DNA of 64,000 bases, taken from Candidatus Nanoarchaeia archaeon (GTDB lineage Archaea > Nanobdellota > Nanobdellia > Pacearchaeales > GW2011-AR1). Numbering within the stretch: the stretch's first letter is position 1; each line of letters opens with the position of its first letter. The translations under genes and the position numbers were made by a program. Location of the stretch: the NCBI GenBank assembly GCA_028718805.1, contig JAQUKY010000007.1, forward strand, positions 18,176 through 82,175, in the 5' to 3' direction. Of this stretch, positions 48,773 through 64,000 are shown in pieces. The notes beneath the pieces were generated by a model. The model had not been told where the DNA came from. It saw nothing but the letters and a program-made list of their open reading frames with translations, and made no database searches.

Positions 48773-49018
48773 TTAACCCCTGATAATCTTCACACTTTTA
48801 ATTAGCTTAGCTTTATCGCCTATGGTTTTGATTAACCTCTCAATTTCATCAGGCCTGAACTCTATTAACCCAGAAGTTGAGTTATTCCTAAATGCTATTT
48901 CAAATTTTTCATTTTTAGGATTCACCATATCCTCATTAATCATAATCTCTTCAATATGGACCTGATTTTTTACTTTTCTTGGCCCATTTCCTGTTTTGTA
49001 TTTTGTTTTTATTATCAT
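48773..49018 (-). CDS. hypothetical small protein
   Basis: ORF whose end sits against the start of the giant gene upstream. Confidence 0.3.
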   Translation of the reverse strand: MIIKTKYKTGNGPRKVKNQVHIEEIMINEDMVNPKNEKFEIAFRNNSTSGLIEFRPDEIERLIKTIGDKAKLIKSVKIIRG

Positions 49019-52000
49019 TTTTTATTGTTAAAACCTCCTTTTAAGATAAATAAAATTGCAGTAAGAGCAAGAAGTATGGTAAGTATAGGTATAATAACAC
49101 GGGCTTTATTTGCGGTATTGCCGGTTTTTGCTTCTGTATTGCCTGTTTGCAATGAAATTTTTTCTATTTCAGAAATATTTTCTTCAATCTGCTTGCATTC
49201 AACAGTTAGAGTTTTTGTGACAGAATCATCTCTCCCTCCAAAATAAGCTGTTATCTCAATTTCATAATTTCCTTCTTCTGCATTTTCTGGAATGTTAATG
49301 CTGAGAGTTTTAGTTTCAGTATCATCTTCATCATATTTTTCTAGTTCAAATTTCTCAGTTTTCTCGCTTATATTTAAATCAGGATTTTCAACAAGCAAAT
49401 AAACATCTTCGTCTTTGCTTCCTATGTTTTTAACCTTTATTTTTGCATTAAAATAGCCGCCGCATGTGGCTTTAGAATCAATATCTGCCTTTTGGATAAT
49501 AACATCATACTTTTCTCTTTCAATATTAATAGGAATGTAATCTTGATTGCAGTTATTTTCATCCTCATCTATTACTTTTACAAAAAGAGCATATTCATCT
49601 TTCTCATCTAAATCATCAGGAATTGTAATTTCAAAATCTAAATTTTCATTCTCTCCTTCATCAGCAGAAATCGAATCTTCATAATTTTCAATTTCTTCGT
49701 CATTTGTAATATCATATAAATAGACATTTACATCAAAATCTAAATCCTCATTCAGATCATTTTCTACTCTTATTTCTCCGGTAATTATGTCTCCAATGAT
49801 AAACTCATCATTTTCATCAGGATTTTCAATCTCGAATTTTAATTTATTGCTCAAATTCTCGCATCTGTCGACACTTGAAAATTTAGGCTGTCCTGCAATT
49901 GAACAGCATGTAATTAAATTGGAGTCAGAAGTTCCAAGCAAATCTCCCAAGCAAATTTGATTTTCCCTGGTTATATATCCATCAACTTCCTGGCACGTAA
50001 AGTCAGAAATATCACCGACAAATACATTCCAGATATGTTCATCTTCAAATTCATTATCAGTGAGTATTGCTTTAATCTCATAATTTCCTTTTGTATTATT
50101 AAAAATATAATCCTTCCCGCTTCCTGACTCATTTCCATCAACAAACCAGGTAATGTCTAATTCATCACCATCCACATCAAAAACATTTATTGAAAATTCA
50201 TAATCTGTGTTTTCCATCAATTTTGGAGTTCTAAGAGGACTGTAACTTCTTATTTTCGGAGCATCATTAACAGGGGTAATATTCACATTTAACAAATATT
50301 CATCATATCCATTTGCGTCACTAGCAATTAGATTGCAGTTTGCCTCTCCGTTATAGTTTAATTCAGAAGAATAAGTTAATTCATTTCCGTTTATATTGCA
50401 ATTTAAATTATTTTTGTCACCAACGGTGAATTCAATGCTGTCATTTTCAAAATCACTTGCATTTAATATGCAGGTATACTCAGTATCTTCATCAATATCC
50501 AATTGACAATCTATCAAGGCAAATTCAGGAGACTCATTCATATCATTAACTGTTATATTAACTTCATTTGAATTTCTTGTTTCTGTCCCATCAGATGCTG
50601 AAAAACTGACAATCTCACTTCCCCACCAGTCAGCATCTGGAATAAAGCTGGCTAATCCATTATCAATTATAACATTAATATGATTATTCCCAGTAACGTC
50701 AAATGTCAGTTCATCTTCATCTGCATCATAAAAATAATCATTTAAATCAAAATAATCAGTTTTATTAGTGTCTTCATCAAAATTTATATCACCAATATTT
50801 CCAATAAATCTCGGAGCATCATTTACAGAATTAACTACTAGGGTAACATTATTTGATATCAGATCTATGTCTTTTGCTTCATCATGTACCCCAAAGATAA
50901 CCCAATCATTTTCATGCCAGTCTTTATCAGATGAGAAGTTAAATATGCCATTTTCCATAATATCAACAGAGATATATTTGTCTTCAGAAGTGTCATAAAT
51001 ATAATATATTAATTCACTGCTTCCAGGATTCCAGATATAAGATGATAAATCAAAGCTTTTTGTTTCATCTTCATTCCATTCTATATTATTAATTTCAGAA
51101 ATCCATTCAATAGCATTATCACAATTGCTGTCGGTCATATCATACTGCATTTCTTCTGCATCAGGATTTATTTCATTATTTGAATCATTGCAGTCAATAT
51201 TATCATTTACATAATTCTCAGGAGCATCACAGGCTCTTTGCGATAACAGAGGATTTCCATAACCATCAGTATCAGAATCTAGATATTTTAACAGATCACA
51301 ATCCAAATTGCATGAAGCTGCTGAATCATCGCAATCACCATCAATATCTGAGTATCCAGCAATAAGCTCATCCCCAGAACAAACATCCAATAAACTTCCT
51401 GTTCCATAACCATCTTCATCATTATCAACATAACCTTCAAACAACTGCCATTTATTATTATCAGCGTCATTGCAATCTCCACCAATATCAGAATAACCTG
51501 CAGGAAGGCTGTATCCAGAACAAACCTGTAATAACCCTCCAGCCCCATATCCATCTTTATCGCTGTCTAAATAACCTTCTAGTAATTGCCATTTATATTT
51601 ATTTGAATCATTGCAATCACCATCAATTTCAGAATATCCTTCAAGCAGATTCTCTCCAGAACAGACATCCAGTAAACTTCCGCTTCCATATCCATCCCCA
51701 TCATTATCAGCATATCCTGGAAGATTCTGCCATGTTTGATTGTTATTATCATTGCAATCATCATCATAATGATATCCATCTTCATCTTTATCCTCTCCAT
51801 ATAAAATCCATTCAATTGAATTCAAGAATAAGGTGTTTGCATCATCATTCCACAAGCTTGCTTTTGACAATCCAAAAAACAGGTTTCTTTCAGATATAGA
51901 AACATTTTTTTTAAGGCAATTTCCATCATTTAATAATAAAGCATTTTTTTCTAAGAGTAAAATTGCACTGTTGGCAGTGTCGCTTCTGTAAGCAAGGCTC

Positions 52001-52464
52001 TGAGAATTTAATGCTTTGCATCCTGTGAGATAGCCTATGTTATCTATATTATTATAAACAGTCAAGTCTCCTAATAAAAATCCTTCTGTTATTAAATAAT
52101 TATTGCTTGAAATTGTTATTTTGCTATTTGTGGTAACCCCCTGATATTTTGCAAGTCCTGCATTTTTAGCAGCCTCCTGGCTTAGAAAAATAGTTTTATG
52201 ATTTTTATTATCAAATATTCCAGATGTGCTTGTTACATCTTCTCCAACAATGATTATATCATATAAATTAGGATTAAACAGGATATCATCTAATAAGCTG
52301 ACTGTATGCCCATTTTCTTCTAAAATATTTATTATAGTAGTTTCGTCAGCATTAATAGGATAAGGTGTTTTGACAATGTAACCTATATTTGCAGCAGATA
52401 CAAAACAAACAACAAAAATAAGAAACAAAAATGCAGATAAAACTAAAAATGATTTCTTAAACAC
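49015..52464 (-). CDS. giant (1149 aa) acidic surface protein
   Basis: Signal peptide. Three tandem ~40-aa Asp-rich DGYGxGxLLDVCSG...GYSDIDGDCND repeats. VNDAP motifs in a cadherin/Big-like region. C-terminal TM followed by a KK tail. Confidence 0.55.
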   Translation of the reverse strand: MFKKSFLVLSAFLFLIFVVCFVSAANIGYIVKTPYPINADETTIINILEENGHTVSLLDDILFNPNLYDIIIVGEDVTSTSGIFDNKNHKTIFLSQEAAKNAGLAKYQGVTTNSKITISSNNYLITEGFLLGDLTVYNNIDNIGYLTGCKALNSQSLAYRSDTANSAILLLEKNALLLNDGNCLKKNVSISERNLFFGLSKASLWNDDANTLFLNSIEWILYGEDKDEDGYHYDDDCNDNNNQTWQNLPGYADNDGDGYGSGSLLDVCSGENLLEGYSEIDGDCNDSNKYKWQLLEGYLDSDKDGYGAGGLLQVCSGYSLPAGYSDIGGDCNDADNNKWQLFEGYVDNDEDGYGTGSLLDVCSGDELIAGYSDIDGDCDDSAASCNLDCDLLKYLDSDTDGYGNPLLSQRACDAPENYVNDNIDCNDSNNEINPDAEEMQYDMTDSNCDNAIEWISEINNIEWNEDETKSFDLSSYIWNPGSSELIYYIYDTSEDKYISVDIMENGIFNFSSDKDWHENDWVIFGVHDEAKDIDLISNNVTLVVNSVNDAPRFIGNIGDINFDEDTNKTDYFDLNDYFYDADEDELTFDVTGNNHINVIIDNGLASFIPDADWWGSEIVSFSASDGTETRNSNEVNITVNDMNESPEFALIDCQLDIDEDTEYTCILNASDFENDSIEFTVGDKNNLNCNINGNELTYSSELNYNGEANCNLIASDANGYDEYLLNVNITPVNDAPKIRSYSPLRTPKLMENTDYEFSINVFDVDGDELDITWFVDGNESGSGKDYIFNNTKGNYEIKAILTDNEFEDEHIWNVFVGDISDFTCQEVDGYITRENQICLGDLLGTSDSNLITCCSIAGQPKFSSVDRCENLSNKLKFEIENPDENDEFIIGDIITGEIRVENDLNEDLDFDVNVYLYDITNDEEIENYEDSISADEGENENLDFEITIPDDLDEKDEYALFVKVIDEDENNCNQDYIPINIEREKYDVIIQKADIDSKATCGGYFNAKIKVKNIGSKDEDVYLLVENPDLNISEKTEKFELEKYDEDDTETKTLSINIPENAEEGNYEIEITAYFGGRDDSVTKTLTVECKQIEENISEIEKISLQTGNTEAKTGNTANKARVIIPILTILLALTAILFILKGGFNNKK

Positions 52465-53125
52465 GCTTTTTCACTTTCTTTTTTAGTTTAGTTTTCACAA
52501 CCTTTTCTTTTTCAATTTTTTCATCTCCATTCTTAATTTTTTTCTTGGGTCTATAATAAATAATCAGCACAACAATAAAAACTAAAGCAACAATCAAAGT
52601 TGTTCCCAATGCAATCATATTTTTGTCTAATTTTCCAATAACATTTCCAGTAATCCCTGTTGAAGAGCTATTGGTATGGTCATTAGAATTGCCAGTATTG
52701 GTATCTGCGTTAGTATCCTCTCCGTCATTAACGTCTTCCCCGCTTGCAACAACAATAATAGTAGAGCTTAATCCAGCCCCGTTCTTTCCATCAACAGGTG
52801 TGAATTGGACATTTATCTTGCTTTCTGTTTCTCCTGCTTTTTTTACCTTAATTGTGAAAAAAGCTTTTTTCTCCTCTCCTGCATTTAAGGTAAAATTATC
52901 ATCTTTAATTTTTATATCCTCTGCTAAATCTCCTGTAGCGAACAATTTTATTTTTACTGCAACATCATTTGTATTCTTAACAGCAATTGACCTTTCAATA
53001 GTATCCCCAGTTTTGGCATCATCCAGAATCATTCTAGCATTTCCAATACTTGCGGTTATGGCAAGAACACTGCCAATAAGCATAAGAGTCATCAATAAGC
53101 CAATAAGCACAAATTTTTTGTCCAT
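52457..53125 (-). CDS. membrane-anchored surface protein
   Basis: Signal peptide, beta-rich domain, STGITGNVIG motif, TM, Lys-rich tail. Confidence 0.45.
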   Translation of the reverse strand: MDKKFVLIGLLMTLMLIGSVLAITASIGNARMILDDAKTGDTIERSIAVKNTNDVAVKIKLFATGDLAEDIKIKDDNFTLNAGEEKKAFFTIKVKKAGETESKINVQFTPVDGKNGAGLSSTIIVVASGEDVNDGEDTNADTNTGNSNDHTNSSSTGITGNVIGKLDKNMIALGTTLIVALVFIVVLIIYYRPKKKIKNGDEKIEKEKVVKTKLKKKVKKRV

Positions 53126-53303
53126 TTTTTAGTCAATCTTTACAGGATTACTACGAAGTTACAGCATTTTTTTAATATTTAAACATTATTATGTTAAGAA
53201 GTATATTAACTAAAATAAGTTATAAGTTGTCCTTATAATCGACGATAAAATAATGATTAACAACAAAACTAAATAATAAGAAGCAATTAACATTACCAGA
53301 TTT

Positions 53304-56300
53304 TTAGATAGGCTCTCCCCAGAAGTATATATTCCCATCTTCGAAATTTCCATTGCATGGTTCTGGCATATTCAGTTTGAATGTCAGTGACATTTCAGAG
53401 CCTGGAGTCAATACATTACCAACATTGTTTGCAATATGTGTACTGTATCCTTCTGTACCGATTATCTCCTTAGCTTCTTTTATGTCATCTCCATATGGAA
53501 TTTCAGAATAACCTTCATCATCTATGTTATAAGGACCTGCTCCACCAACATTTGCTGTTGAGTAGTATCCGTTTGTAGCAAAGTATCTGAAGTTTTTCAG
53601 GTCAAGAACATTGCTTGTCGGGCACATTGCACCTGAATGTGATGAATCAAAGAAGTTTGTACCTGCGATATACATTTCAAGTCTAACTCCAGAGTTTTCA
53701 TCAGCATCATTTTCAATAGTTATTGTTGAATAAGCAGTTGTTCCTGGCATAATAATATCATCGCCAAACGACAAATCTCCCTCAATATTTAGGTTAATAA
53801 GAGGGTTAAAAAACCAGTATTCATTTTCATCCATTGTTCCTGATAATCCGCTTAAGTCATCTGCTTCAACAGTCACCCAGTATTGTCCATACATGCTCTC
53901 AGCTGTTTCTACATTTAAAGTACATTCATAATAACCAGCTACCTGGGACAGATCTCTGCCTGTTAAATTCTCTTCTCCTATCCTTGCATTACAGCTTTCA
54001 TCAACTTCTGTTGCTGTTCCGATAAAATGGCAATTAGATTCTATATCATTTCCTTCTCCTTGTTCATCCCCAATTGTAACAAAAACATCCCCCATCTTTT
54101 CAATACCATTCTTATCCATTACAAGGACTTTCCATTTTATCTGCTCTCCTTCAAAAGCATAGTTCTGTTGTCTTTCAATAAGCTCTTCTCCTGGTGTTGT
54201 TCCGGGTTGCCATTGGTCATCATAAACAACTCTGCTGTCGCACATCCAGACTATGGGAGGGAAACCTTCTTTTTTGCATTTAGAAGAGCATCCGTCTTTG
54301 CTTACATTATTTCCGTCATCGCACTGCTCTCCAGAATCTAAAATATTATCTCCACATTTAGGCAATATACAATTATTTCTACATTCATCAAAATTATTTA
54401 AATTCCCATCGTCACATTGTTCAGAAATCTGGTTTACAATTCCATCTCCACAATAGGGTTCAATGCATGATCCATTAATACAGGCATATCCGCATATCTG
54501 AAATTCTTTTTCTGCATGAGAGCTGTTGAAACAGCTTCCTGATGAACATCCCTTGTCATAACATGTTCTTAGCCTTGTCTTATTTTTTCCATCGCAAAAA
54601 TATTCTCCCCAATCATCACACCCATCTTCTCCACACTCTTGAATATTTTCTGTTATATTTTCAAAAAAACATTCTCCATCTGAGCATCCAGGGATTAAAT
54701 GATTTCTTACAACATCTTCCTCTTTGCAGTAATTATCAGAATAACTTTCATTCCCGCAATTCTTTACAAAAGTTTCATTTACAAAAGAATTATTAAAACA
54801 TCCTCCTAATTCACATCCTCTGTCATAACAAGTCTGGTTTTTGTAAACATCAATGCCTTTGCAATACTGGTTTCCAAAATTATCGCAGCTGTCATTTCCA
54901 CAATTCTCAAATAATTGGGAAGTTATATTAAACATGCAATTTCCGTCTTTACAGAAATAATCAGTTAGGTTTCTATAAACATTATTGTTTATACAATAAT
55001 TATCAGAATATGAATCATTAGGGCAATCTCCGTCTGCACAGCATTCTTTTATAATTATTTTTCTCTTAGCATAATTATCACTCATATTACAATCTGTTTC
55101 ATTAATCTTCTCGGCATAAACACTGATGTTGTGTTCTCCAAGCAAACTTGAAGTGCTTATATTAATAGATTTTGAATGTTCATGATCTATTGGAGAATTA
55201 TAATCTGCAATAATAGTTTCATCTATTTTCACAATAACATGTATATTATTTGTTGTGTTAGCTATTTTATTATCTATATAATATTTTATAGTATAATTTT
55301 TCCCCTTTATCAGTTCAACAGGGTCATGCAGCCAGGTTCCATTTGTAAGCCCTATAGCAATTCCTGTTTCAAATGAGTTTCCGTAAGAATATCTTATTCC
55401 AACATCATGTTCGCATCCCGTACAATTTCCATTCTTACATCCAAATTCACAAACACTCACATTTTCATTTTGATAATCAGGAGTAGTATAACATGATGCA
55501 TCAGAACATCCTCTTAAAATATCTGTCTTGTTTCTCCAGACCTCTTTTCCAATGCAGTAATAGTTCTCTGTTCCATATGAATTTTCACCGCAATCTTCAA
55601 AAAGGCTTTTGTTTACAAAAGAATTATTAAAACATCCTCCTAATTCACATCCTCTGTCATAGCAAGTCTGGTTTTTATAAACATCATTATTTTCACAATA
55701 GTTTATAGGGGCATCACAGCTGTCATTTCCGCAATCCTGAACAAGGATTTTGCTTATATTAAACAAGCATTCTCCATCATCACAGAAATAATCAGTTAAG
55801 TTCCAGTAAATGTCATTGTTATAACAGTATTCATCAGAATAAGAGTCATTAAGGCAGTCGCCATCATCACAGCATTCATCTACACAGCTTCCGTCTTCAC
55901 ATCCATAAGTGCAGTTTTCAACAAATTCATTTTTATAATCAGGAGTGGTAAAGCATGATGTACCAGAACATCCTCTTAAAACATCTGTTTTGTTTCTCCA
56001 TACTTCTTTTCCAATGCAGTATTTATTCCATGTTCCTTCTTCATCTTCTCCACATTCATCACTCTTTTCACTTGTAAAATCATGAGAATGAGTGCAGCTT
56101 CCTGCCTCGCATCCTCTTAATTCCTCAGTGATATTTTTCCATACATCATTATCATAGCAATATTCTACTTCTTCATGTGAATCTTCCCCGCAATTCTGGA
56201 CAAATGTATCATTTAAAATAGAATTATTAAAGCAAACTCCTGTGCCTAATACACATCCTCTGTCATAGCAAGTTTGCTTTGTCCATAAATCATTCTCTTT

Positions 56301-57680
56301 GCAATAATCTTCCCATTCTGTACAGCTGTCTTTCCCGCAATCTTGTTTTATTTTTAATTCAGTTGAATTAGTGCAATAAGAGTCTGCTGTTCCAGGATTT
56401 TCACATTCAAATTCATTCCAGAAATCCCAGATATTTTTAGTGCATACACAGCGGTCCTGATTTACCCATCCATCTTCTCCGCAATCTGAATTCTCATCGC
56501 AGGTTATTGTCATGCAGTCTGCATCACAGGTTGAAGTGTTAGGAGGTTCGCACTCTTCATCATCATTTACAATTCCATCTCCGCATTCAGATTCTGTGCA
56601 GTTTCCATCAACGCACTCATAGTCGCATGTTGTTATAAATTCATTTTTATAATCCTCATCTTCAAAACATCCTTCTTCATTGCATCCTCTTAAAACATCT
56701 GTCTTGTTTTTCCATACCTCTTTTCCTATGCAGTATTTATTCCATGCTCCTTCTGAATTGCTTCCGCATTCGTCAGACAATTCAGGAACCACATCAAAAA
56801 GGCAATTTCCATCATCACAGAAATAATCAGTTAAATTCCAGTAAACATCATTGTTATAACAGTATTCATCAGAATGAAAATCTTTAGGACAATCAGTGTC
56901 ATTGCAGCATTCTGGTTCTTCAATGCATATGCAGGCATTGCAAGTATAGCCTTCATCGCAGTCATCATTTATTTCACATTCCTCATCACCTTCTTTAACT
57001 CCATCACCACATTCAGGCTCTTGTGTCTCATTATATCCGCAGAAAATAATATAATCTATTTCTTTTCCGTTTATTTTCCCTAAAATTCCGCTTGTTCCAT
57101 TAACAGTTACAAATTTCAATCCACCTTTTGCAATAATCCCATCAGCTCCGCTTGTTCCAGCATTCCAGGTTGCATTGCTGCAGCATCCTGTAACTGAACT
57201 TCCTGGATATTTTTGCTCTTTTAAAACCCAGCTGCCCCATCCACAGCATGTTCCAAAGCATTCCCATTTAGCAACACCAAAATCAAAACCATAATCTCTG
57301 CATTCTTTATCAATATTTATGCCGCATCCGCTCCAGCACATAGTAGAAAGGTCTGGAGAAGAATCATGATGTGATGAGCCAGAAGAATGTGAAGAGGATG
57401 AACTTGAAGAAGAGCTTGTGATTATATTATCATCCATTATATTGTTCTCGTCTAAGAGAGTATTAACATAAGCATTTTCAGTTGAACTTGTTGTTGCAAT
57501 ATTCCTTAAAACATCAGTTTTATCTCCTGTTGATATTGGAATTACAAGATAAACTGCAATAATCACAAGATTTACAATTAAAAATAATATTAGGACAGTT
57601 AATAATACCCCTTTGCTGTTATTTGCGTTATAATCCCCTTTTGATGGCATATTTTTTGTTATATGTTTACTAGCCATCAC
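53304..57680 (-). CDS. giant (1458 aa) Cys-rich modular surface protein with an N-terminal signal anchor
   Basis: N-terminal TM, then a poly-Ser stretch, then at least 8 repeats of a ~45-aa Cys module (CCxDxDCPxDxYSDxYCxNNDVYxNLTDYFCxDGNC) interleaved with CGxNSxGxWNKYCIGKEVWxNKTDxLRGC modules. Confidence 0.55.
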   Translation of the reverse strand: MMASKHITKNMPSKGDYNANNSKGVLLTVLILFLIVNLVIIAVYLVIPISTGDKTDVLRNIATTSSTENAYVNTLLDENNIMDDNIITSSSSSSSSSHSSGSSHHDSSPDLSTMCWSGCGINIDKECRDYGFDFGVAKWECFGTCCGWGSWVLKEQKYPGSSVTGCCSNATWNAGTSGADGIIAKGGLKFVTVNGTSGILGKINGKEIDYIIFCGYNETQEPECGDGVKEGDEECEINDDCDEGYTCNACICIEEPECCNDTDCPKDFHSDEYCYNNDVYWNLTDYFCDDGNCLFDVVPELSDECGSNSEGAWNKYCIGKEVWKNKTDVLRGCNEEGCFEDEDYKNEFITTCDYECVDGNCTESECGDGIVNDDEECEPPNTSTCDADCMTITCDENSDCGEDGWVNQDRCVCTKNIWDFWNEFECENPGTADSYCTNSTELKIKQDCGKDSCTEWEDYCKENDLWTKQTCYDRGCVLGTGVCFNNSILNDTFVQNCGEDSHEEVEYCYDNDVWKNITEELRGCEAGSCTHSHDFTSEKSDECGEDEEGTWNKYCIGKEVWRNKTDVLRGCSGTSCFTTPDYKNEFVENCTYGCEDGSCVDECCDDGDCLNDSYSDEYCYNNDIYWNLTDYFCDDGECLFNISKILVQDCGNDSCDAPINYCENNDVYKNQTCYDRGCELGGCFNNSFVNKSLFEDCGENSYGTENYYCIGKEVWRNKTDILRGCSDASCYTTPDYQNENVSVCEFGCKNGNCTGCEHDVGIRYSYGNSFETGIAIGLTNGTWLHDPVELIKGKNYTIKYYIDNKIANTTNNIHVIVKIDETIIADYNSPIDHEHSKSINISTSSLLGEHNISVYAEKINETDCNMSDNYAKRKIIIKECCADGDCPNDSYSDNYCINNNVYRNLTDYFCKDGNCMFNITSQLFENCGNDSCDNFGNQYCKGIDVYKNQTCYDRGCELGGCFNNSFVNETFVKNCGNESYSDNYCKEEDVVRNHLIPGCSDGECFFENITENIQECGEDGCDDWGEYFCDGKNKTRLRTCYDKGCSSGSCFNSSHAEKEFQICGYACINGSCIEPYCGDGIVNQISEQCDDGNLNNFDECRNNCILPKCGDNILDSGEQCDDGNNVSKDGCSSKCKKEGFPPIVWMCDSRVVYDDQWQPGTTPGEELIERQQNYAFEGEQIKWKVLVMDKNGIEKMGDVFVTIGDEQGEGNDIESNCHFIGTATEVDESCNARIGEENLTGRDLSQVAGYYECTLNVETAESMYGQYWVTVEADDLSGLSGTMDENEYWFFNPLINLNIEGDLSFGDDIIMPGTTAYSTITIENDADENSGVRLEMYIAGTNFFDSSHSGAMCPTSNVLDLKNFRYFATNGYYSTANVGGAGPYNIDDEGYSEIPYGDDIKEAKEIIGTEGYSTHIANNVGNVLTPGSEMSLTFKLNMPEPCNGNFEDGNIYFWGEPI

Positions 57681-57956
57681 CTCTTGCTTATATCACCCCT
57701 AACCAATTAAAACATATAGGTTTTCTTTATAAACAAAATTAAGATTTGAAATATATCTCTTATTTTCCCAATACAAGAAGTATATTTTCTTGAATATGAT
57801 TAGTGTGATTACTTTTTTTTGATGAAACTTTTAAAAAAGTAATTAGGTTTGTGATGAAAATTCATCTGATAAAAGTAGTAAATTAGGTTTATATATCAAA
57901 GAATATTATCCATCATAGATATTAGACAATATATTATAAAAAGAAGGTGATAACGT

Positions 57957-58508
57957 ATGAAAAGAGAAATTAAATTAATTTTAAGTCTTTTAATCTTTGT
58001 TGCGTCTATAATCCCAATAATCCATGCACAGCCATATTCAATTAATGTGGAATTTAATGGTAATTTCATAAATGGAACAACCCTTTATAGTGATGTGTAT
58101 ATCATTGATGGGTATCTTTATGGCAAGGATGTTTATCCAATAAGAGACTCAAGCCAAAACCAAAGGCAAAAAATATGCGAAATCTATTACAAAAATAAAA
58201 CAAAGGCAGAGTGTACATGGTTGCCGGGCCCAAAAAGGATATGTACTAAAATACCTTATGTAAAAGAATACCAAAAGTGTAAATGGATAATAATAAATCC
58301 GGTTAAAATAGCATGTAATAACACAATTAAAGGTTATAAAAATCAGCTTAAACTGGAGAATTTTAAATACAGTCTTGATAACTCAACTTGGCAGGAAATT
58401 CCCTATCATGAAATCAGCATTAATTCAACTTCAGTTTATTTTAAATTGGATATCCCTCAATTATGTTCTCCAGAATATTATATGAACAAAGCTATTTTTA
58501 TTAGGTAG
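57957..58508 (+). CDS. small secreted Cys-containing protein
   Basis: Signal peptide MKREIKLILSLLIFVASIIPIIHA. Confidence 0.4.
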   Translation: MKREIKLILSLLIFVASIIPIIHAQPYSINVEFNGNFINGTTLYSDVYIIDGYLYGKDVYPIRDSSQNQRQKICEIYYKNKTKAECTWLPGPKRICTKIPYVKEYQKCKWIIINPVKIACNNTIKGYKNQLKLENFKYSLDNSTWQEIPYHEISINSTSVYFKLDIPQLCSPEYYMNKAIFIR

Positions 58509-58533
58509 AAATCACATTTAAAAATTATTCTTT

Positions 58534-59991
58534 CTAGCCCTTTCTGACGTTATAAGAAATTAATGCTAATATTGCAATTATAATAACAAATCCTAATGCA
58601 ACAGGTATTTTGTTATTCTTAGCAAATCCAATAGCGTTTCCAGTAATTCCAGATAAACTGCTTTGGTCCTGGGTTGTTAATTCATTTGTTTCAATTTTAT
58701 TTTCAGTTTCTTTTGAGCTTGAGCTTGAAGTCTTTCCTAAGATAACTTCTGAAATTCCTTTGACTGTAACTTTTGCCTTGCTGCCTGTTATGCTTTCTAA
58801 TTTAACTGATAAGTCATAGGTATTATCACCATTAACATCTACTTTCTTTTGATCTCCTGCATTAAGAGTAAATGTCTGAGGTGTGCTTGATACTGTTATT
58901 GAAGCATTTGTTTTTGTCATGCTGTTTACAGTTACATAGTGAGTTTGGTTTGCAATTTTAAAACTGAATTTTGCTCCTTTTGTCATGTCTTTTGTTGCTC
59001 CATCATTTAATTGAGTCTGAGTTAAAATATAAACAGAGCCTCCTCCGCCCCCGCCTCCACCTCCTCCACCTCCTCCGCCACCCCCGCCTCCGCCGCCATT
59101 ATTATTTCCTCCATTATCAGCAGCAGGTTCACTTATTGTTAAATTTCTTGATTCAGATAAAATAGTGCTTGTCCCCTTTGTACATTCTATTTTCCAGGCG
59201 TGATTTCCAACAGGAACAGATTGTGTTATTGTATTGTCAGCATTTATGCTTGTTATTGCTGTTAATTGATCATTTAGATTTAAATTACACTGGCTTATTC
59301 CTGTTAAATTCCCAGAAATACTGAATCCAAAAGCTATGTCCTGTTGTCCTGTAGCAGAATAGGCATTTGCAGGGCTTGTTAAAGTTATTGTATTTCCAGT
59401 ATCACCTTGTCCGCTTTCTGTGATTGTGAAACTTCTAGAATCTGAAAATATTACATTTCCCCCAGAACCGGATTTTTGCGTACATTTTATCTTCCATATA
59501 TAAATTCCAGGTATTGCATTATAATATAATTTTTGAGTAGTACTGCCTACTGGAGCATTTTTTGTCGCAACACTATCCCCATTAACAAGTAACTCGCATT
59601 TTTGAACTTCAGAGCTTTTTGTAACTTTAAATGTGAATTCTAGTTTTATAGGATCTTCAGATTCTACTGAGAATTTATCCAAAGGATTGAATAATGTTAT
59701 TACAGGAAGGTCTACGGGAGGAGGCAGTGGTTCTTCATATAAATAAGTGCATTCCCCGATTTCATTGCATGAGTTAATGCCTGTAGGGCAATAAACTTCA
59801 TTAGAAACTTCATTAACGCATAACTGGCATTTTGTTGTATCACATGTGTAATCTGATATCTCTTCATTACACTCAGAAAAATGTATTATCTCTCCTTGCC
59901 TCAAACAGATTAATGATTGTGCGCTAACAATGCTAAACACGCTTAATAATAAAAACAATCCAGTAATACCTAGTGTTATTTCTTTTTTCAT
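58534..59991 (-). CDS. secreted surface protein with a 22-residue poly-Gly linker and a C-terminal SGITGNAIG motif plus TM anchor
   Basis: The start is taken as the internal Met of [24 protein letters not shown], a signal peptide. The upstream 56 codons of the track ORF carry no signal. Confidence 0.5.
   Translation of the reverse strand: [485 protein letters not shown]
59041..59097 (-). repeat. GC-rich GGN codon run encoding Gly x22
   Basis: A ~57-nt tccDccNcc low-complexity tract inside the CDS. Local GC is above 70% in a ~30% GC genome. Confidence 0.7.
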
Positions 59992-60149
59992 ATCATTACT
60001 TCCCAGTAATTCTTTATAAACAAATTTGTAATCCAAAATCAGTAATGAAAAATCTATAATATGAAAATATATAATAGTAAATAAGAAATTATTTGTTACT
60101 TCTTTTGACAAAGATTGAATTAAAAGAAATCTGCATACTTCAGTATAAC

Positions 60150-60220
60150 TGATAATCAATAATGCTGTAATTTAAGCGATTTAGCAACAGAAGATTAAGC
60201 GGGTGAGTTTATATGTTATT
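60150..60220 (+). repeat. degenerate partial relic of the 165-nt repeat family
   Basis: ctgataatcaataatgctgtaatttaagcgatttagcaac matches ctgataatcgctaatgctgtgatttaaacgcttgtggaag at 33 of 40 positions. This is followed by aagcgggtgagtttatatg, which resembles aagcggataagagtaaagatata. Confidence 0.5.
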
Positions 60221-60249
60221 AGAAAGTTAACAAATTTAGTAGTAGAATG

Positions 60250-60477
60250 TTAAACTCTTTCTTCAATGATCCGGGAAATAGGTTTCCCTGTTTTTTCCTT
60301 GAGTTTTTTTAATTTGTTTATAGTTTCAACAGAGAGAGTTACATCTATTCTCTTCCTTTGGAAAGGCAATTCATGAGTTTTATCATAATTTTCAAGAGCT
60401 TCAAATACATCTTTGTATTTTTTCAATATTTTTTTTGTTTGTGTCTGTTTCATTTTATACAACTTTTTAATCTCCAT
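60250..60477 (-). CDS. ribbon-helix-helix protein, candidate antitoxin partner of Doc
   Basis: C-terminal KRIDVTLSVETINKLKKLKEKTGKPISRIIEE has an RHH pattern. Overlaps the Doc gene by 28 nt. Confidence 0.4.
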   Translation of the reverse strand: MEIKKLYKMKQTQTKKILKKYKDVFEALENYDKTHELPFQRKRIDVTLSVETINKLKKLKEKTGKPISRIIEERV

Positions 60478-60791
60478 TCAATTTGTCTGATATTAGTTAT
60501 GTTTTTACTTGCAATAGATAAGACATGATGAACAATTAATTCCCTGTCTATTTGTTTTTGGTTTTCTTCTGCGAATTTTAAAGCAAAAAATGTTGCAGTT
60601 CTCTTGTTTCCATCTGAAAATGGATGATCAACAAGTATAGCTCTCCATAAATAAGCTAATTTCTTATAATCTCCAAGCTTTTCATTTTCCTGCATTTCAA
60701 TAGCAAAATCAATGCTTGAATCGCTTCTTAAGTTTCCTCCAAATCCATCATTTATTCTTAGTAGATCTTCCTTACTAATTTTCATACACAT
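60450..60791 (-). CDS. doc: Doc (death-on-curing) / Fic-family toxin
   Basis: HPFSDGNKRTA matches the Doc variant of the Fic motif, HxFx(D/N)GNKR. Length 113 aa. Confidence 0.6.
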   Translation of the reverse strand: MCMKISKEDLLRINDGFGGNLRSDSSIDFAIEMQENEKLGDYKKLAYLWRAILVDHPFSDGNKRTATFFALKFAEENQKQIDRELIVHHVLSIASKNITNIRQIEWRLKSCIK

Positions 60792-60871
60792 AAATAATGG
60801 TAAGCAGTATTTAAATCTTTCTATCTCGCAATCACAACAATGATTATATAATCTTCATGCTTTAATTCAGG

Positions 60872-61303
60872 ATGCCCAGACAGATACAGACCCTGATGCT
60901 TAAAGAGCATGAGAGGATAAGCAGATTTCTTGGACAGCTTGAAAAAGAAATAGACAATTATGACAGGACAAAAATTAACTTTAACAAGTTTAAATGGAAC
61001 CTGGAAAAGCATTTTTTTGTGGAGGAAAAGGTAATATTCAATATGTTTGTGAATATTTCAGGAAAAGAAACAACAGACACCTTCCATCTTCTGAGCGATC
61101 ATGTCAGGATAATTGGCATGATAAATAATGTAGATGAAAAGCTGAGAAAAAAGATAAGACCTGATCTGTCCAGGCTGAAAGAGGTGCTGACTGCTCATAA
61201 AGATTTTGAAGACCATTATTTTTATCCAAGGTTAGATGAAAGATTAACTCTTGATCAGAAAAAGGAAATCTCAGAAAGAATTCAGGAAATCATTCCTGGG
61301 TAA
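60872..61303 (+). CDS. hemerythrin-like (HHE cation-binding) protein
   Basis: Spaced H/E pairs: LKEHERI, LEKHFFVEE, LSDHVRI, LTAHKDFEDH. Confidence 0.45.
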   Translation: MPRQIQTLMLKEHERISRFLGQLEKEIDNYDRTKINFNKFKWNLEKHFFVEEKVIFNMFVNISGKETTDTFHLLSDHVRIIGMINNVDEKLRKKIRPDLSRLKEVLTAHKDFEDHYFYPRLDERLTLDQKKEISERIQEIIPG

Positions 61304-61490
61304 GATAGCCTTTATCTCAAACTTCTGATAATATTGGCATAAGTCGTCAGGTTTATTTTAAGGAAGTCAGCAAGTGAAGTTAAAATAAATAAGCCCAAAA
61401 CAGCAATCAGCAAAATGATTACAACCCTGATACTGTTTGATTTGTGTTTCATCTTTTTATTCTCTTGTTTTTAATATTCATCTTCCTTTT

Positions 61491-61811
61491 TTAAGGCCAG
61501 TGATTATGAGCAAATCCTTCATAAAATCTTCTTGGATCCTGGGGGCATGTTCTTTGGACACCCATAAGAAAGTCATATGTTTCAGCATGAGGTTCAGAAG
61601 CATCAATTCTTTTGCCAACCATTATTTCCATAGAACTCCAGCCATTATTTTCATTTTGTAAAACCAAAGCAGCTTCTAATCTTTGTCTTCTTGTTGGATT
61701 TTCTAAATCAACCTTAATATTATGTTTTTTAACAGCCCGTTCTAATAATCCTCTTACATAACCATCAACTGGCTGAACTTCATCTAATGGGTTTATTATT
61801 TGTTTATTCAT
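61491..61811 (-). CDS. hypothetical protein
   Basis: ORF only. Confidence 0.3.
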   Translation of the reverse strand: MNKQIINPLDEVQPVDGYVRGLLERAVKKHNIKVDLENPTRRQRLEAALVLQNENNGWSSMEIMVGKRIDASEPHAETYDFLMGVQRTCPQDPRRFYEGFAHNHWP

Positions 61812-62197
61812 TTTTTGTGTTTTTTTACCTTTTTCTGAACAGTATAATCAAGCTTTTTGCACAGCGCGCTATGTTCGGTCTTAAATTCATTGAGATATTT
61901 TAGTAGATCTCTCGCTACGCTATGGTCCCCATAATTTTTTCTTATTTGTCTTATCATTTTTTCAGTTTCATTACCGGTGGTATAAGATGAATCAAGAAGA
62001 TCAGTTATACTGCTTCTTCCATAGCTTGAAGGATGTTCTGTTATATTTTTAATTTTCGTTGTTGCCATTCTAATTCCAAAATACATCATGCCGGCATTAC
62101 ATCCTAATGAAAGCGCCTTAGAAACTTCTGCTTTAGCTAAAGCGTTAGTTAAATCTTTATGAGAATAAGTTTTTTTAGTGTATGTTTTCTTTGCCAT
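61808..62197 (-). CDS. hypothetical basic protein
   Basis: ORF overlapping the downstream gene by 4 nt. Confidence 0.3.
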   Translation of the reverse strand: MAKKTYTKKTYSHKDLTNALAKAEVSKALSLGCNAGMMYFGIRMATTKIKNITEHPSSYGRSSITDLLDSSYTTGNETEKMIRQIRKNYGDHSVARDLLKYLNEFKTEHSALCKKLDYTVQKKVKKHKK

Positions 62198-62221
62198 TTT
62201 TAATCTTTTAGAAATAATTTA

Positions 62222-62962
62222 TTAAATACTTTCCCTCTCTGTAATCGCCTTTCTCTTTCTGATAAACCTGACAATCAAGGATAAAACTAATATCCCAACA
62301 ATAAATACAATAATTACAACCCAGCCTGTTCCTAATGTTCCGACAACAGCCCCTGTAATTCTTGATACTCCCCCAAGGGTTGTAGTCTGGTTATTCCCTG
62401 TTAAAGTTTGTGTTTCATTGTTTGAACTTTCATCTCCGTTTCCGGCATTCTGGCTTGGTTCACCCGTTATATTATTATTTATGAAGATCTTGCAGTCTCT
62501 TGGGCATGTAGTTACGCTCTCTCCCGAGTCGCATTTATCATTTCCGCATAAATAATATCTATTGTTTCCTCCGTTATTATGATTAGTAGTTTGTTTGGGC
62601 TTAATGGCTAGGTTTATGATTGAAACAAATCCTTCTGCGCAATCACCCCTATCATTGCATTCAATTACAACCCCTGAATCAGAGCCATACAGGCTTCCTT
62701 TTGCACCCTCTGCATTAACATTAGCACCTTCTCCACACTCATCAACATCAAACCTTACTGCATATGTTCCGTCGTCAAGGCTGTCTGTCTCTAAGACATG
62801 AGAATTGCATGTTACTGTAACATCAGCATCTGAAATAATATCAGAATATTCAGAATTGTATATTTTTCCTGCAACAAGAGTCTGTGCAGATGTGATACTG
62901 ATTAAAAATACAAATAAAAATAATCCGGCAATCAATAATCCTGATGTCTTTGCGGTTTTCAT
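62222..62962 (-). CDS. secreted Cys-containing surface protein with a C-terminal RITGAVVG motif, TM and basic tail
   Basis: Signal peptide. Shares the C-terminal motif family with the 52457 and 58534 proteins. Confidence 0.45.
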   Translation of the reverse strand: MKTAKTSGLLIAGLFLFVFLISITSAQTLVAGKIYNSEYSDIISDADVTVTCNSHVLETDSLDDGTYAVRFDVDECGEGANVNAEGAKGSLYGSDSGVVIECNDRGDCAEGFVSIINLAIKPKQTTNHNNGGNNRYYLCGNDKCDSGESVTTCPRDCKIFINNNITGEPSQNAGNGDESSNNETQTLTGNNQTTTLGGVSRITGAVVGTLGTGWVVIIVFIVGILVLSLIVRFIRKRKAITERESI

Positions 62963-63346: not shown

Positions 63347-64000
63347 TTATATCCCAAATATTACTTTAAGAATTTTCCTTAAAAATGAATCTTCGTTTTC
63401 AGAATTTATAACTCCCCCTGTTACTACTACATTTTCTCCTCCTCCCCCGCTGCTTTCACTTCCGCCCCCACTTCCAGAATCTCCATTGCTACCTGAATCT
63501 ATAACTACATTACTTCCTCCGCCCCCACTGCTTCCACTTCCGCCACTATCTCCCACAATCCCTTGTGGCCCTGAATCTACATCATTATCAACTGTGTTTG
63601 GAGCAGGTGATACATCTTCATTTTCTTTATCCATTGAAGGTTTATCAATATCATTATTTTCATTATCCATACTTGGCTCTTGTAGATCTATTGTTCTAAT
63701 AGCATTATCTATAACATCAATTTCCTGCTTTATTTCATCTGCTCTTCCTAAATCCTGCCCAGTTTCCTGAGATTTTTTTTCAGAATCATCTGCAATTTTT
63801 TCAATCTGCTCCGGGTTAATATAATCAACTTTTCCATTTTCATCAACAATAATTTTTTCTCCGTTTTTTATTCTCTCTTCATTAACTCTTCCTGCAATCA
63901 TCTTGCAATCAGTAACATCAGAAACACCCATCTGCATGCATTCTTTTGGCAGGGTTACTTCTTCATATCCTCCAGATTCTTCTTCACAAGTTTCTCCTTC
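63347..64000 (-). CDS. Gly/Ser/Asp-rich hypothetical protein, 5' end beyond the window
   Basis: The frame stays open past the track's Met at 63937 to the window edge. Low-complexity SGGSGSSGGGGS segments. Confidence 0.35.
   Translation of the reverse strand, partial: EGETCEEESGGYEEVTLPKECMQMGVSDVTDCKMIAGRVNEERIKNGEKIIVDENGKVDYINPEQIEKIADDSEKKSQETGQDLGRADEIKQEIDVIDNAIRTIDLQEPSMDNENNDIDKPSMDKENEDVSPAPNTVDNDVDSGPQGIVGDSGGSGSSGGGGSNVVIDSGSNGDSGSGGGSESSGGGGENVVVTGGVINSENEDSFLRKILKVIFGI

What the first reader, a model, noticed from the sequence alone, without database searches (positions are those of the whole stretch)
52457..62962. Three surface proteins share a C-terminal sorting-like signal, and three share a conserved membrane-proximal domain
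Three proteins end with (S/T)-G-I-T-G-N-[AV]-I-G, or the variant R-I-T-G-A-V-V-G, roughly 10 to 15 residues before a single TM helix and a Lys/Arg-rich tail. They are 52457-53125 (STGITGNVIG), 58534-59991 (SGITGNAIG) and 62222-62962 (RITGAVVG). The 58534, 52457 and 33497 proteins also share a membrane-proximal beta-domain motif, for example FTLNAGxxKK...YDLxVKLxSITxxxAxVTVK. A motif plus TM plus basic tail is the format of exosortase/archaeosortase (PEP-CTERM, PGF-CTERM) and sortase substrates. But the motif is neither PGF nor PEP, and no archaeosortase lies in the window. This may be an unrecognised C-terminal processing or anchoring signal family.
Basis: seen in the sequence. Interest (0 to 1): 0.6.

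Follow-up and report, generated by a model that had tools for sequence, protein, structure and literature searches.

The report
Conserved membrane-edge motif in nanoarchaeal proteins
Three surface proteins of a tiny DPANN archaeon carry the same eight-residue tag (GITGN[V/A]IG) just outside their membrane anchor, and this tag is widespread and apparently undescribed in that lineage; because it also sits next to N-terminal anchors, in two-helix hairpins and in linkers of giant proteins, it is a general membrane-edge recognition motif rather than a strictly C-terminal sorting signal.

Summary
The motif is real. ITG[NA][AV][IV]G occurs three times in the window's 54 proteins, against 0.0009 expected. 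Each copy lies 5-8 residues before a C-terminal TM helix and basic tail.

It is not local paralogy. DNA-pattern scans of genome and metagenome collections find the same 8-mer, in frame and next to a TM helix, in many Woese-/Pace-/Nanoarchaeota contigs. This includes full-length members of NCBIfam NF033506 ("PACE-CTERM-PROT", putative S-layer protein).

It is not C-terminus-specific. It also occurs:
- directly after N-terminal anchors of DsbA- and cupredoxin-like proteins;
- in the loop of tiny or C-terminal two-TM hairpins;
- in tandem clusters in linkers of giant proteins.

Within the orthologues of the 52457 protein it is facultative (28%) and decays gradually.

The shared domain is real only for the 58534 and 33497 proteins. 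It belongs to a large family (3224 clusters) of about 100-residue all-beta membrane-proximal domains with no Pfam or PDB match. The 52457 protein does not share it.

No archaeosortase, sortase or rhomboid lies in the window.

Best reading (confidence 0.4): an extracytoplasmic membrane-surface recognition peptide, used here in an LPXTG-style tripartite anchor and read by an unidentified processing or attachment enzyme. Non-covalent docking or self-assembly is nearly as likely.

The parts
52634..52663 (-). Motif STGITGNVIG (aa 155-164) of the 222-aa protein encoded at 52457-53125
   Evidence: Identical in the closest orthologues P0187-P0189 and P0191.
52460..52633 (-). Rest of the tripartite tail of the 52457 protein: spacer KLDKNM (52616-52633), TM helix IALGTTLIVALVFIVVLIIYY (52553-52615) and a 31-aa Lys/Arg-rich cytoplasmic tail (52460-52552)
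58627..58653 (-). Motif SGITGNAIG (aa 447-455) of the 485-aa protein encoded at 58534-59991
   Evidence: Orthologue P0034 has SGITGNVVG. Subfamily members P0044, P0059, P0060, P0115 and P0146 have GITG[AG]VIG.
58537..58626 (-). Spacer FAKNNKIP, TM helix VALGFVIIIAILALISY and tail NVRKG of the 58534 protein
62339..62362 (-). Variant motif RITGAVVG (aa 201-208) of the 246-aa protein encoded at 62222-62962
   Evidence: The N-to-A variant (GITGAVIG) recurs in unrelated relatives.
62225..62338 (-). Spacer TLGTG, TM helix WVVIIVFIVGILVLSLIVRFI and tail RKRKAITERESI of the 62222 protein
58741..59037 (-). Membrane-proximal all-beta 'stalk' domain (aa 319-417) of the 58534 protein
   Evidence: BLASTP to 33497 gives E=5e-18. 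The family has 3224 cluster representatives. AF2 model pLDDT is 94. No Pfam or PDB match.
33671..33973 (-). The same stalk domain (aa 908-1008) in the 1065-aa LamG protein encoded at 33497-36694. It is followed by a C-terminal TM helix (33524-33580) without an ITG motif.
49015..57680 (-). Conserved three-gene surface-protein operon that holds the 52457 gene: a Cys-rich 1458-aa protein (53304-57680), the 52457 protein, and a 1149-aa cadherin/MopE protein (49015-52464, 8-nt overlap) that partly matches NF033506
   Evidence: The same gene order is seen in L245 and L246.

Best explanation
GITGN[V/A]IG is a short linear motif of Nanoarchaeia (the DPANN group that includes Woese-, Pace- and Nanoarchaeota). 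The looser consensus is [small]-G-[IL]-T-G-x-[AV]-[IV]-[GS]. It is displayed on the outer face of the cytoplasmic membrane within a few residues of a TM helix.

In the three window proteins it is the signature element of an LPXTG-style tripartite C-terminal anchor: motif, short hydrophilic spacer, TM helix, basic tail. The putative S-layer family NF033506 ends in the same format.

The mechanism I think most likely is this. The motif is read in trans by a so far unidentified membrane-associated enzyme whose active site sits at the outer membrane surface. That enzyme cleaves at the motif, or cleaves and re-attaches the protein, probably at the small-residue positions ...ITG|N or ...VIG|. This sheds or re-anchors ectodomains.

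Shown: the motif, its topology, its spacing, its spread across the lineage and its four contexts. Inferred: recognition in trans. Purely conjectural: cleavage or attachment, and the identity of the enzyme.
For: 1. The 8-mer has sharp edges and sits in otherwise unrelated proteins. Flanking positions carry only 0.3-0.9 bits of information. Syntenic orthologous tiny genes in L123 and L124 keep little besides the motif.
2. Spacing to the membrane is tight: 0-5 aa after an upstream TM and mostly 2-7 aa before a downstream TM.
3. The tripartite format with a basic tail and stop codon is seen in the window, in 7 of 9 DPANN-labelled genome loci and in 13 metagenome loci. TM-adjacent in-frame hits number 31 of 110 in low-GC loci against 5 of 131 in high-GC loci, where hits are mostly chance (p=9e-8).
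4. Several unrelated carriers occur per genome stretch: 3 in this window and 3 in the 20 kb of L123.
5. The putative S-layer protein family NF033506 'PACE-CTERM-PROT' ends in GITGNV[IF][GA]-TM-R (468 and 415 bits). This parallels the Haloferax S-layer glycoprotein, the model PGF-CTERM/ArtA substrate (PMC6098224).
6. A hydrophilic spacer between motif and TM is typical of LPXTG-type signals (Haft preprint 10.1101/2023.06.07.544157).
7. I/V at -3 and G at -1 fit the small-residue rule for membrane-surface peptidases (established knowledge of signal peptidase specificity).
Against: - About a quarter of TM-adjacent instances follow an N-terminal anchor with no downstream TM. Examples are the DsbA-like L154, L219 and L150 and the cupredoxin L208.
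- Many instances are TM-motif-TM hairpins on tiny proteins or on cytoplasmic-domain proteins, where cleavage has no obvious purpose.
- Tandem clusters lie far from any TM in giant proteins.
- Only 24 of the 86 TM-bearing orthologues of 52457 keep a recognisable motif. It decays stepwise: ITGNVIG, VTGKVIG, ITGNIAVG, ITTRINIG, ISGRIFVG, then none.
- Only about 10 of 146 C-terminally anchored stalk-domain proteins have it.
- No archaeosortase, exosortase, sortase or rhomboid Pfam hit occurs in any window ORF or in the neighbourhoods L121, L123 and L124.
- Archaeosortases are reported only from some Euryarchaeota.
- The core of the motif logo is inflated, because most instances were found with a strict pattern.
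Confidence: 0.4

Rival explanations
1. The motif is a non-covalent docking or assembly peptide. It binds a common partner at the outer membrane face, for example the inner side of the S-layer, or it pairs with other copies of itself by beta-strand or glycine-zipper-like association ([S/T/A]xxxGxxxG). Proteins are clustered or tethered without being cleaved. The tiny hairpin proteins would be membrane 'pegs' that do nothing but display it.
For: - It explains all four contexts equally well: after TM1, before TM2, in hairpin loops and in tandem clusters in giant proteins.
- The only conserved feature of the tiny hairpin genes, which occur in tandem arrays, is the motif.
- The motif is facultative and evolutionarily labile within families.
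- The pattern small-xxx-G-xxx-G is present in all three window copies (read directly from the sequence).
- AF2 places the motif at the end of TM1 and in the hairpin turn.
- The S-layer-like family carries it too.
Against: - No partner has been identified.
- The AF2 model is weak at the motif (pLDDT about 58).
- The strict conservation of I, T and G is not explained by a glycine zipper alone.
- I know of no precedent for such an 8-mer docking tag in prokaryotes.
- Polar, variable spacers separate the motif from the TM, so it is not a continuous TM packing face.
Confidence: 0.3
2. The motif is a site of post-translational modification, such as glycosylation or lipidation of the invariant Thr or the frequent Asn. 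A membrane-embedded transferase would act as the chain emerges from the translocon.
For: - All contexts are extracytoplasmic.
- Tandem clusters in Ser/Thr/Asn-rich linkers resemble multi-site modification regions.
- The spacers after the motif are rich in N, S and T and often hold N-x-S/T sequons.
- S-layer proteins are typically heavily modified.
Against: - The motif is not an N-x-S/T sequon.
- Asn at position 5 is replaceable by A, G, H, Y or S.
- No transferase is linked to it.
- Hairpin 'pegs' have no obvious need for modification.
Confidence: 0.12
3. The motif is a purely cis-acting structural element with no trans partner: a turn, hinge or helix cap at the membrane boundary, or an alternative signal peptidase I site (ITG|N, VIG|) that works only where it follows an N-terminal hydrophobic segment.
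For: - The Gly/Asn-rich sequence favours turns.
- It directly follows TM1 in the hairpin and N-terminal-anchor contexts.
- The -3/-1 residues fit signal peptidase I rules.
- An archaeal signal peptidase I is encoded in the window at 14132-14626 (TIGR02228, 58 bits).
Against: - A generic turn or cap would not need a near-identical 8-mer across orders.
- The window's own signal peptides end in xSA| (VSA|QS, TSA|QT, VSA|AN) and not ITG|.
- Signal peptidase I cannot explain copies that lie upstream of a C-terminal TM, or internal copies.
Confidence: 0.13
4. The three window copies reflect only recent paralogy or chance. Alternatively, they are divergent members of a known system (PGF-CTERM/archaeosortase, PEP-CTERM or LPXTG/sortase).
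For: The three genes lie within 10.5 kb. Two of the three tails align weakly with each other.
Against: - Chance expectation is 0.0009 per window proteome.
- The same motif occurs in unrelated proteins of many other MAGs.
- No hit reaches the cut-off of any curated CTERM model. The best are Heimdall-CTERM at 13.7-13.9 bits against a cut-off of 24 and LPXTG_anchor at 14.4 bits against 15.9. Both matches fall on the TM segment only.
Confidence: 0.02

Closest known systems
NCBIfam NF033506 'PACE-CTERM-PROT' (putative S-layer protein)
   Same: Full-length members (L059, L133) end in SGITGNVIG-GG(S/N)xYLW...TM...R(V)A(K/R). This is the same motif-spacer-TM-basic-tail format. Profile positions 575-627 cover it. 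The model's name shows that curators noticed a C-terminal region in this one family.
   Different: It is a whole-protein model of 627 positions, not a sorting-domain model. The three window proteins do not match it. Only the window's 49015 protein matches its middle part, below cut-off. No publication or cognate enzyme was found.
LPXTG cell-wall sorting signal / sortase
   Same: Tripartite C-terminal design with a short hydrophilic spacer between motif and TM, a basic tail and a Thr-Gly pair inside the motif. Many unrelated surface proteins per genome carry it (for the design rules).
   Different: There is no Leu-Pro. No sortase was found in the window. These archaea are not known to have a peptidoglycan acceptor. 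The motif also occurs after N-terminal anchors and internally. TIGR01167 reaches only 14.4 bits, on the TM part of one hairpin.
PGF-CTERM / archaeosortase A (and PEF-, VPXXXP-, PIP-, CGP-CTERM)
   Same: Archaeal. An S-layer protein and other surface proteins share one C-terminal signal. A non-C-terminal tripartite substrate is known for ArtA.
   Different: In those signals the motif abuts the TM without a spacer. The motif sequence is unrelated. No HMM match was found. Archaeosortases are reported only in some Euryarchaeota.
WGxxGxxG-CTERM (NF038039), an orphan putative sorting domain
   Same: A glycine-spaced signature before a C-terminal TM, with no sorting enzyme identified.
   Different: The sequence and taxonomic range differ. 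The NCBIfam scans gave no match.
Lipobox / signal-peptidase cleavage regions
   Same: [ILV]-[ST]-G directly after a hydrophobic segment resembles the -3/-2/-1 positions of a lipobox or a signal peptidase site (own knowledge; lipobox consensus quoted in PMC12462473).
   Different: Asn or another residue replaces the obligatory Cys. A real lipobox (VSAC, LIGC) coexists with the motif in P0001 and L199. Most copies lie upstream of a TM, not downstream.

Membership tests
Tripartite C-terminal protein-sorting signals (Haft-type: LPXTG, PEP-, PGF-, GlyGly-, MYXO-CTERM...) | Short conserved signature motif | tested here: met
   GITGN[VA]IG in the window and across DPANN contigs.
Tripartite C-terminal protein-sorting signals (Haft-type: LPXTG, PEP-, PGF-, GlyGly-, MYXO-CTERM...) | Motif followed by a hydrophobic TM segment and then a basic cluster at or near the C-terminus | tested here: met
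   All three window proteins. Also 7 of 9 DPANN genome loci. A 2-12 aa hydrophilic spacer is present, as in the LPXTG type only.
Tripartite C-terminal protein-sorting signals (Haft-type: LPXTG, PEP-, PGF-, GlyGly-, MYXO-CTERM...) | Restricted to the extreme C-terminus of exported proteins | tested here: not met
   The motif also directly follows N-terminal anchors with no second TM, sits in hairpins on cytoplasmic-domain proteins, and lies internally in giant proteins.
Tripartite C-terminal protein-sorting signals (Haft-type: LPXTG, PEP-, PGF-, GlyGly-, MYXO-CTERM...) | Several otherwise unrelated target proteins per genome | tested here: met
   3 in this 64-kb window. 3 in the 20-kb L123 and 3 in L124.
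Tripartite C-terminal protein-sorting signals (Haft-type: LPXTG, PEP-, PGF-, GlyGly-, MYXO-CTERM...) | Cognate sorting enzyme that co-occurs with the signal across genomes | not testable with these tools
   Whole proteomes were not available. No archaeosortase, sortase, rhomboid or CPBP hit was found in the window or in L121, L123 and L124. Only the general enzymes signal peptidase I and PSH are present.
Tripartite C-terminal protein-sorting signals (Haft-type: LPXTG, PEP-, PGF-, GlyGly-, MYXO-CTERM...) | C-terminal cleavage and attachment of a new anchoring moiety | not testable with these tools
   Needs proteomics or biochemistry.
PGF-CTERM / archaeosortase system | Match to the PGF-CTERM (or PEF/VPXXXP/PIP) signature and HMM | tested here: not met
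   NCBIfam scans of the full proteins and of the C-terminal peptides gave no such hit at E<=1.
LPXTG / sortase system | LPXTG-like signature and match to TIGR01167 | tested here: not met
   No window protein matches. One hairpin protein reaches 14.4 bits (cut-off 15.9), on its TM and tail only.
NCBIfam NF033506 PACE-CTERM-PROT | Whole-protein score of at least 110 bits | tested here: not met
   The three motif proteins gave no hit. The window's 49015 protein scores 76.5 bits on profile positions 230-458 only. L059 and L133 are true members at 468 and 415 bits.
Membrane-proximal 'stalk' domain family (defined here, alignment A3) | Significant match to the ~100-aa profile, located just upstream of a C-terminal TM | tested here: met
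   Met for the 58534 and 33497 proteins. Not met for 52457 (hhalign probability 5%).

The most novel reading that the evidence does not exclude
Nanoarchaeia possess an undescribed protein-sorting or attachment system. Its signal, GITGNxIG, works from either side of a membrane anchor and also inside giant surface proteins. Its substrates include the putative S-layer protein. Its enzyme belongs to no known sortase, exosortase, archaeosortase or rhombosortase family. Such a system could organise the whole cell surface of these episymbionts.
Probability: 0.3. Interest if true: 0.8.

Novelty: new variant of a known kind. Interest (0 to 1): 0.6.

Why it matters
DPANN archaea live attached to other cells, and their surface proteins are thought to mediate that contact. 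Yet no S-layer protein or anchoring mechanism has been established for them, and archaeosortases are reported only from some Euryarchaeota.

An 8-residue tag that marks the membrane-proximal end of many unrelated surface proteins, including the putative S-layer protein, gives a concrete and searchable handle. It can be used to:
- list the tagged surface proteome of any Nanoarchaeia genome;
- find the factor that reads the tag by phylogenetic profiling;
- design peptides or antibodies for enrichment cultures.

If the tag is a processing signal, it would add a new branch to the sortase/exosortase family of systems. If it is a docking tag, it would be a new principle of surface-layer tethering.

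A by-product is a very large ~100-residue membrane-proximal domain family (3224 clusters at 50% identity). It has a confident model and no Pfam or PDB counterpart, and deserves a family definition.

Tried and rejected
- Word-indexed homology search with the C-terminal 167 aa of the 58534 protein gave 0 hits. The exhaustive HMM search later found the family.
- The profile of 10 C-terminal tails (A1) against 5.8 billion proteins returned only proteins of 88 aa or less, because the score depends on length. This was useful for finding the hairpins, but it is not a census.
- Pfam and NCBIfam gave no sorting-domain hit.
- Literature searches for the motif strings, 'PACE-CTERM', and sortase plus Woesearchaeota gave nothing. 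Papers that combine DPANN with sortase or archaeosortase only give background.
- Neighbourhoods of hairpin genes (L121, L123, L124) show no conserved enzyme.
- The AF2 model of a hairpin protein has low confidence at the motif and was not decisive.
- Rejected: that 52457 shares the stalk domain.
- Rejected: that the ITG inside the last strand of the stalk domain (LESITGSKAKV) is related to the motif. The family consensus there is NSIxxNKA.
- Rejected: that ITG|N is the organism's normal signal-peptidase site. The window's signal peptides end in xSA|.
- Rejected: the 63347-63937 protein ('VVVTGGVI', no TM, no signal peptide) as a fourth instance.
Full report
**Source and setting**

The window is low in G+C (about 32%) and clearly archaeal. 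It encodes a proteasome subunit, FttA, RtcB with archease, OapB/OapC, TrmB and an archaeal CCA-adding enzyme. It also holds a type IV pilus-like locus. That locus has KKGQ-type pilins, two T2SSF proteins and a T2SSE ATPase split by an intein. Exact-sequence look-up assigns the 52457, 62222 and 33497 proteins to a MAG named 'Candidatus Nanoarchaeia archaeon' (locus tags PHH54_04990 and PHH54_05040, contig of 84,385 bp). All are annotated as hypothetical or LamG-domain proteins. The organism is therefore a DPANN archaeon of the Woese/Pace/Nanoarchaeota group.

**Check of the observation: the motif**

- STGITGNVIG at aa 155-164 of the 222-aa protein (52457-53125, minus strand);
- SGITGNAIG at aa 447-455 of the 485-aa protein (58534-59991, minus strand);
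- RITGAVVG at aa 201-208 of the 246-aa protein (62222-62962, minus strand).

Each protein has an N-terminal signal peptide. Each motif is followed by a 5-8 residue polar spacer, one TM helix and a basic tail. Shuffling the residues of the 54 window proteins gives 0.0009 matches on average to ITG[NA][AV][IV]G. No shuffle out of 20,000 reached three.

Only three of the seven window proteins with a signal peptide and a C-terminal TM have the motif. No further copies hide in small ORFs.

**Check of the observation: the shared domain**

The 58534 and 33497 proteins share a real ~100-residue domain (BLASTP E=5e-18, 40% identity). The 52457 protein does not share it:
- it aligns to 58534 only over FTLNAGxxKK and the C-terminal tail;
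- it has no significant match to 33497;
- it scores 5% probability against a 28-sequence profile of the domain.

The claim of 'three proteins, one domain' therefore reduces to two.

**The motif is lineage-wide and not local paralogy**

Of the 80 loci returned with titles, nine come from MAGs named Woesearchaeota, Pacearchaeota, Nanoarchaeota or 'archaeon'. In seven of those nine the match is in frame and is followed by a short spacer, a TM helix, a short basic tail and a stop codon. None of the roughly 110 bacterial matches has that format. They are out of frame, or they lie inside polytopic membrane proteins (some appear LrgB-like).

The same pattern in the metagenome collection gave 13 more loci with motif, TM and stop, all on low-GC contigs. 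Taking both scans together, TM-adjacent in-frame hits are 31 of 110 in loci below 46% G+C against 5 of 131 above (Fisher p=9e-8).

That criterion is not met, so paralogy alone is excluded.

**The motif is not C-terminus-specific**

Four contexts appear.

(a) Secreted proteins with motif, spacer, TM, basic tail and stop, as in the window. Examples are L047, L059, L075, L133, L188 and L199.

(b) TM-motif-TM hairpins. Some are proteins of 38-88 aa that consist of little else; all 31 hits of the tail profile were of this size. Others form the C-terminal end of 250-300 aa proteins whose N-terminal domains lack a signal peptide and are cytoplasmic. One of these looks like a phosphoribosyltransferase (L024, L043, L151, L155, L209). 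Such tiny genes occur in tandem arrays. In L124 the successive copies read GLTGQVTS, GITGYAVA and GITGNVIG. In L123 they read GITGHAIS and GITGNVIS. The syntenic orthologues in L123 and L124 conserve little besides the motif.

(c) An N-terminal anchor immediately followed by GITGNVIG and then a soluble exported domain, with no second TM. Examples are the DsbA-like L154, L219 and L150, the cupredoxin L208, and L228.

(d) Tandem clusters in inter-domain linkers of giant proteins. An example is FVTGSVVRGITGNSISNSGITGNVIRSFGITGNVVSGSC in L013. There are three or four clusters per protein in L013 and in L042 (same protein as L189), and further cases in L197, L172 and L242.

In every case the predicted topology puts the motif outside the cell. 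The motif lies 0-5 residues after an upstream TM and mostly 2-7 residues before a downstream TM. The flanks carry almost no information. One caveat applies: most instances were found with the strict pattern, so the conservation of the core is overstated. Independently found variants show that position 5 can be N, A, G, H, Y or S. The steadiest part is [small]-G-[IL]-T-G followed by [AV]-[IV]-[GS].

**Behaviour within families**

The 52457 protein has 92 detectable homologues in Nanoarchaeota and Pacearchaeota MAGs. Of these, 86 have the C-terminal TM. Only 24 (28%) have a recognisable motif within 30 residues upstream of it.

The motif fades stepwise with divergence: ITGNVIG, then VTGKVIG, ITGNIAVG, ITTRINIG, ISGRIFVG and VTTNIIIE, then nothing.

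The gene sits in a conserved three-gene operon: a large secreted protein, the 52457-family protein, and a large MopE/cadherin protein. This order holds whether or not the motif is present. The motif is therefore an optional add-on and is not required for anchoring this protein.

**The shared domain**

An exhaustive HMM search with the two window copies finds 3224 cluster representatives at E<=0.001 and 1532 at E<=1e-10. In 146 of the best 150, the domain is followed by a 20-60 residue polar linker and a C-terminal TM. It is thus a genuine and widespread membrane-proximal 'stalk' domain.

AlphaFold2 with a 28-sequence alignment gives a confident model (pLDDT 94) with nine strands and one short helix. 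The domain has no counterpart in the libraries that could be searched:
- Foldseek finds no PDB match better than E=0.12;
- profile search of PDB sequences gives only marginal titin Ig hits;
- no Pfam family is shared by more than one of the 28 members.

Only about 10 of the 150 carry an ITG-type motif between domain and TM. These include the 58534 orthologue P0034 and a subfamily with GITG[AG]VIG. Domain and motif are independent modules.

**Relation to what is known**

Neither Pfam nor NCBIfam release 20 has a sorting-domain model that matches the three tails. The only weak hits fall on the TM segment.

However, two motif-bearing proteins found in the scans, L059 (639 aa) and L133 (562 aa), are full-length members of NCBIfam NF033506. 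That model is labelled 'PACE-CTERM-PROT, putative S-layer protein' (468 and 415 bits against a cut-off of 110). Short fragments ending in GITGNV[IF][GA]...TM...R match its last 50 positions. The label suggests that curators noticed a C-terminal region in that one family. I found no separate domain model and no paper on it. The window's 49015 protein matches the middle of that model but has a different tail.

Haft's description of tripartite sorting signals gives the defining features. The window proteins meet three of them: motif, TM and basic cluster. They also have the hydrophilic spacer that is typical of LPXTG signals but absent from exosortase-, archaeosortase- and rhombosortase-type signals. 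The motif fails the 'C-terminal only' feature. The cognate-enzyme and cleavage features could not be tested.

Archaeosortases are reported only from some Euryarchaeota. No S-layer protein has been determined experimentally for DPANN.

No window ORF hits an archaeosortase, sortase or rhomboid family. Only the general enzymes are present, about 38 kb away: signal peptidase I (14132-14626, TIGR02228 at 58 bits against a cut-off of 51.85) and a presenilin-type protease, PSH (12442-13371).

**Interpretation**

The data show a sharply bounded peptide that is kept in unrelated proteins across orders, always outside the cell and within a few residues of the membrane. That pattern argues for recognition by something else at the outer membrane face.

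In this version the motif is a processing or attachment signal read by an unidentified membrane-surface enzyme. Three points favour it:
- the tripartite LPXTG-like format;
- the several carriers per genome;
- the parallel with the Haloferax S-layer glycoprotein and PGF-CTERM.

The N-terminal-anchor, hairpin and internal contexts, the gradual decay within a family, and the lack of any linked enzyme weigh against it. Those same observations are handled more naturally by a non-covalent docking or self-association tag (0.3). In that model the tiny hairpins would be display pegs.

A modification site (0.12) and a cis-structural element or alternative signal peptidase site (0.13) remain possible. 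Chance, recent paralogy or membership of a known system is essentially excluded (0.02).

**Verdict**

As far as the searchable literature shows, the motif is undescribed. It is best classed as a new variant of the family of membrane-anchor-associated signals. There is a realistic chance (about 0.3) that it marks a new sorting system of DPANN archaea.

Noticed in passing
window 58741-59037 and 33671-33973 (minus strand); relatives P0032-P0181: The ~100-aa membrane-proximal all-beta domain shared by two window proteins belongs to a family of 3224 cluster representatives at 50% identity. The AF2 model is confident (pLDDT 94). There is no Pfam family and no Foldseek PDB match below E=0.1. This is a candidate new domain family.
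   Followed up: partly
window 39996-43028 (minus strand): The T2SSE (FlaI/VirB11-like) secretion ATPase of the pilus-like locus is interrupted by an intein with a LAGLIDADG homing-endonuclease domain (Intein_splicing E=8e-26, LAGLIDADG_3 E=3e-16).
   Followed up: partly
window 12442-13371 (+) and 14132-14626 (-): A presenilin-type intramembrane aspartyl protease (PSH, E=7e-17, below the curated cut-off) and an archaeal signal peptidase I (TIGR02228, above cut-off) lie 1 kb apart. They are the only membrane-associated proteases found in the window and are generic candidates for processing juxtamembrane sites.
   Followed up: partly
window 49015-57680 (minus strand); L245, L246: Conserved three-gene operon: a Cys-rich giant secreted protein, a small PapD/Cep192_D3-like TM-anchored protein (the 52457 family), and a large MopE/cadherin protein. 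The last two genes overlap by 8 nt. The 1149-aa protein partly matches the putative S-layer model NF033506.
   Followed up: partly
L013:2-7999(-), L042:1385-7999(+): Giant surface proteins (over 2200 aa and running off the contigs) of Pace- and Nanoarchaeota carry three or four tandem clusters of ITGN-type motifs at roughly 370-640 aa intervals. The flanks (CTKNGVR[ST]FVTGSV...) are repeated, which suggests modular repeat units separated by the motif.
   Followed up: partly
L123:9780-10192, L124:9145-10210: Tandem arrays of two or three tiny (63-167 aa) TM-motif-TM genes occupy syntenic positions in two related contigs, next to a conserved 467-aa soluble protein of unknown function and an ABC transporter.
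   Followed up: partly
window about 59038-59103 (minus strand): The 58534 protein contains an uninterrupted run of 22 or more glycines (NNGGGG...GGGS) directly upstream of the stalk domain. This is presumably a flexible linker and possibly a slippage-prone tract.
   Followed up: no
window 28512-29309 (+) and 31572-32021 (+): Two paralogous genes share an identical N-terminal 32 residues (MVSLKVNIHKKDLWLLSAIVVFLVGVAYVIAY, including the TM anchor) and then diverge. They flank the RtcB/archease genes.
   Followed up: no
window 63347-63937 (minus strand): A Gly/Ser-rich 196-aa protein ends in ...ENVVVTGGVINSENEDSFLRKILKVIFGI. This is a loose match to the motif, but the protein has no signal peptide and no TM. 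It was not counted as an instance.
   Followed up: partly
window 58534-60159 (minus strand): The mechanical ORF starts at a TTG (60159, 541 aa). The signal peptide begins at the ATG at 59991 (485 aa), which agrees with the 480-aa orthologue P0034. This exact 485-aa sequence is not in the protein collection, so the gene may have been called differently in the source annotation.
   Followed up: partly
window 46735-48294 (minus strand); P0001; L199: Lipobox-like signal peptide ends (LVSAC, VVSAC, LIGC) occur in this lineage. In P0001 and L199 they coexist with the GITGNVIG motif, so the motif does not replace the lipobox.
   Followed up: no
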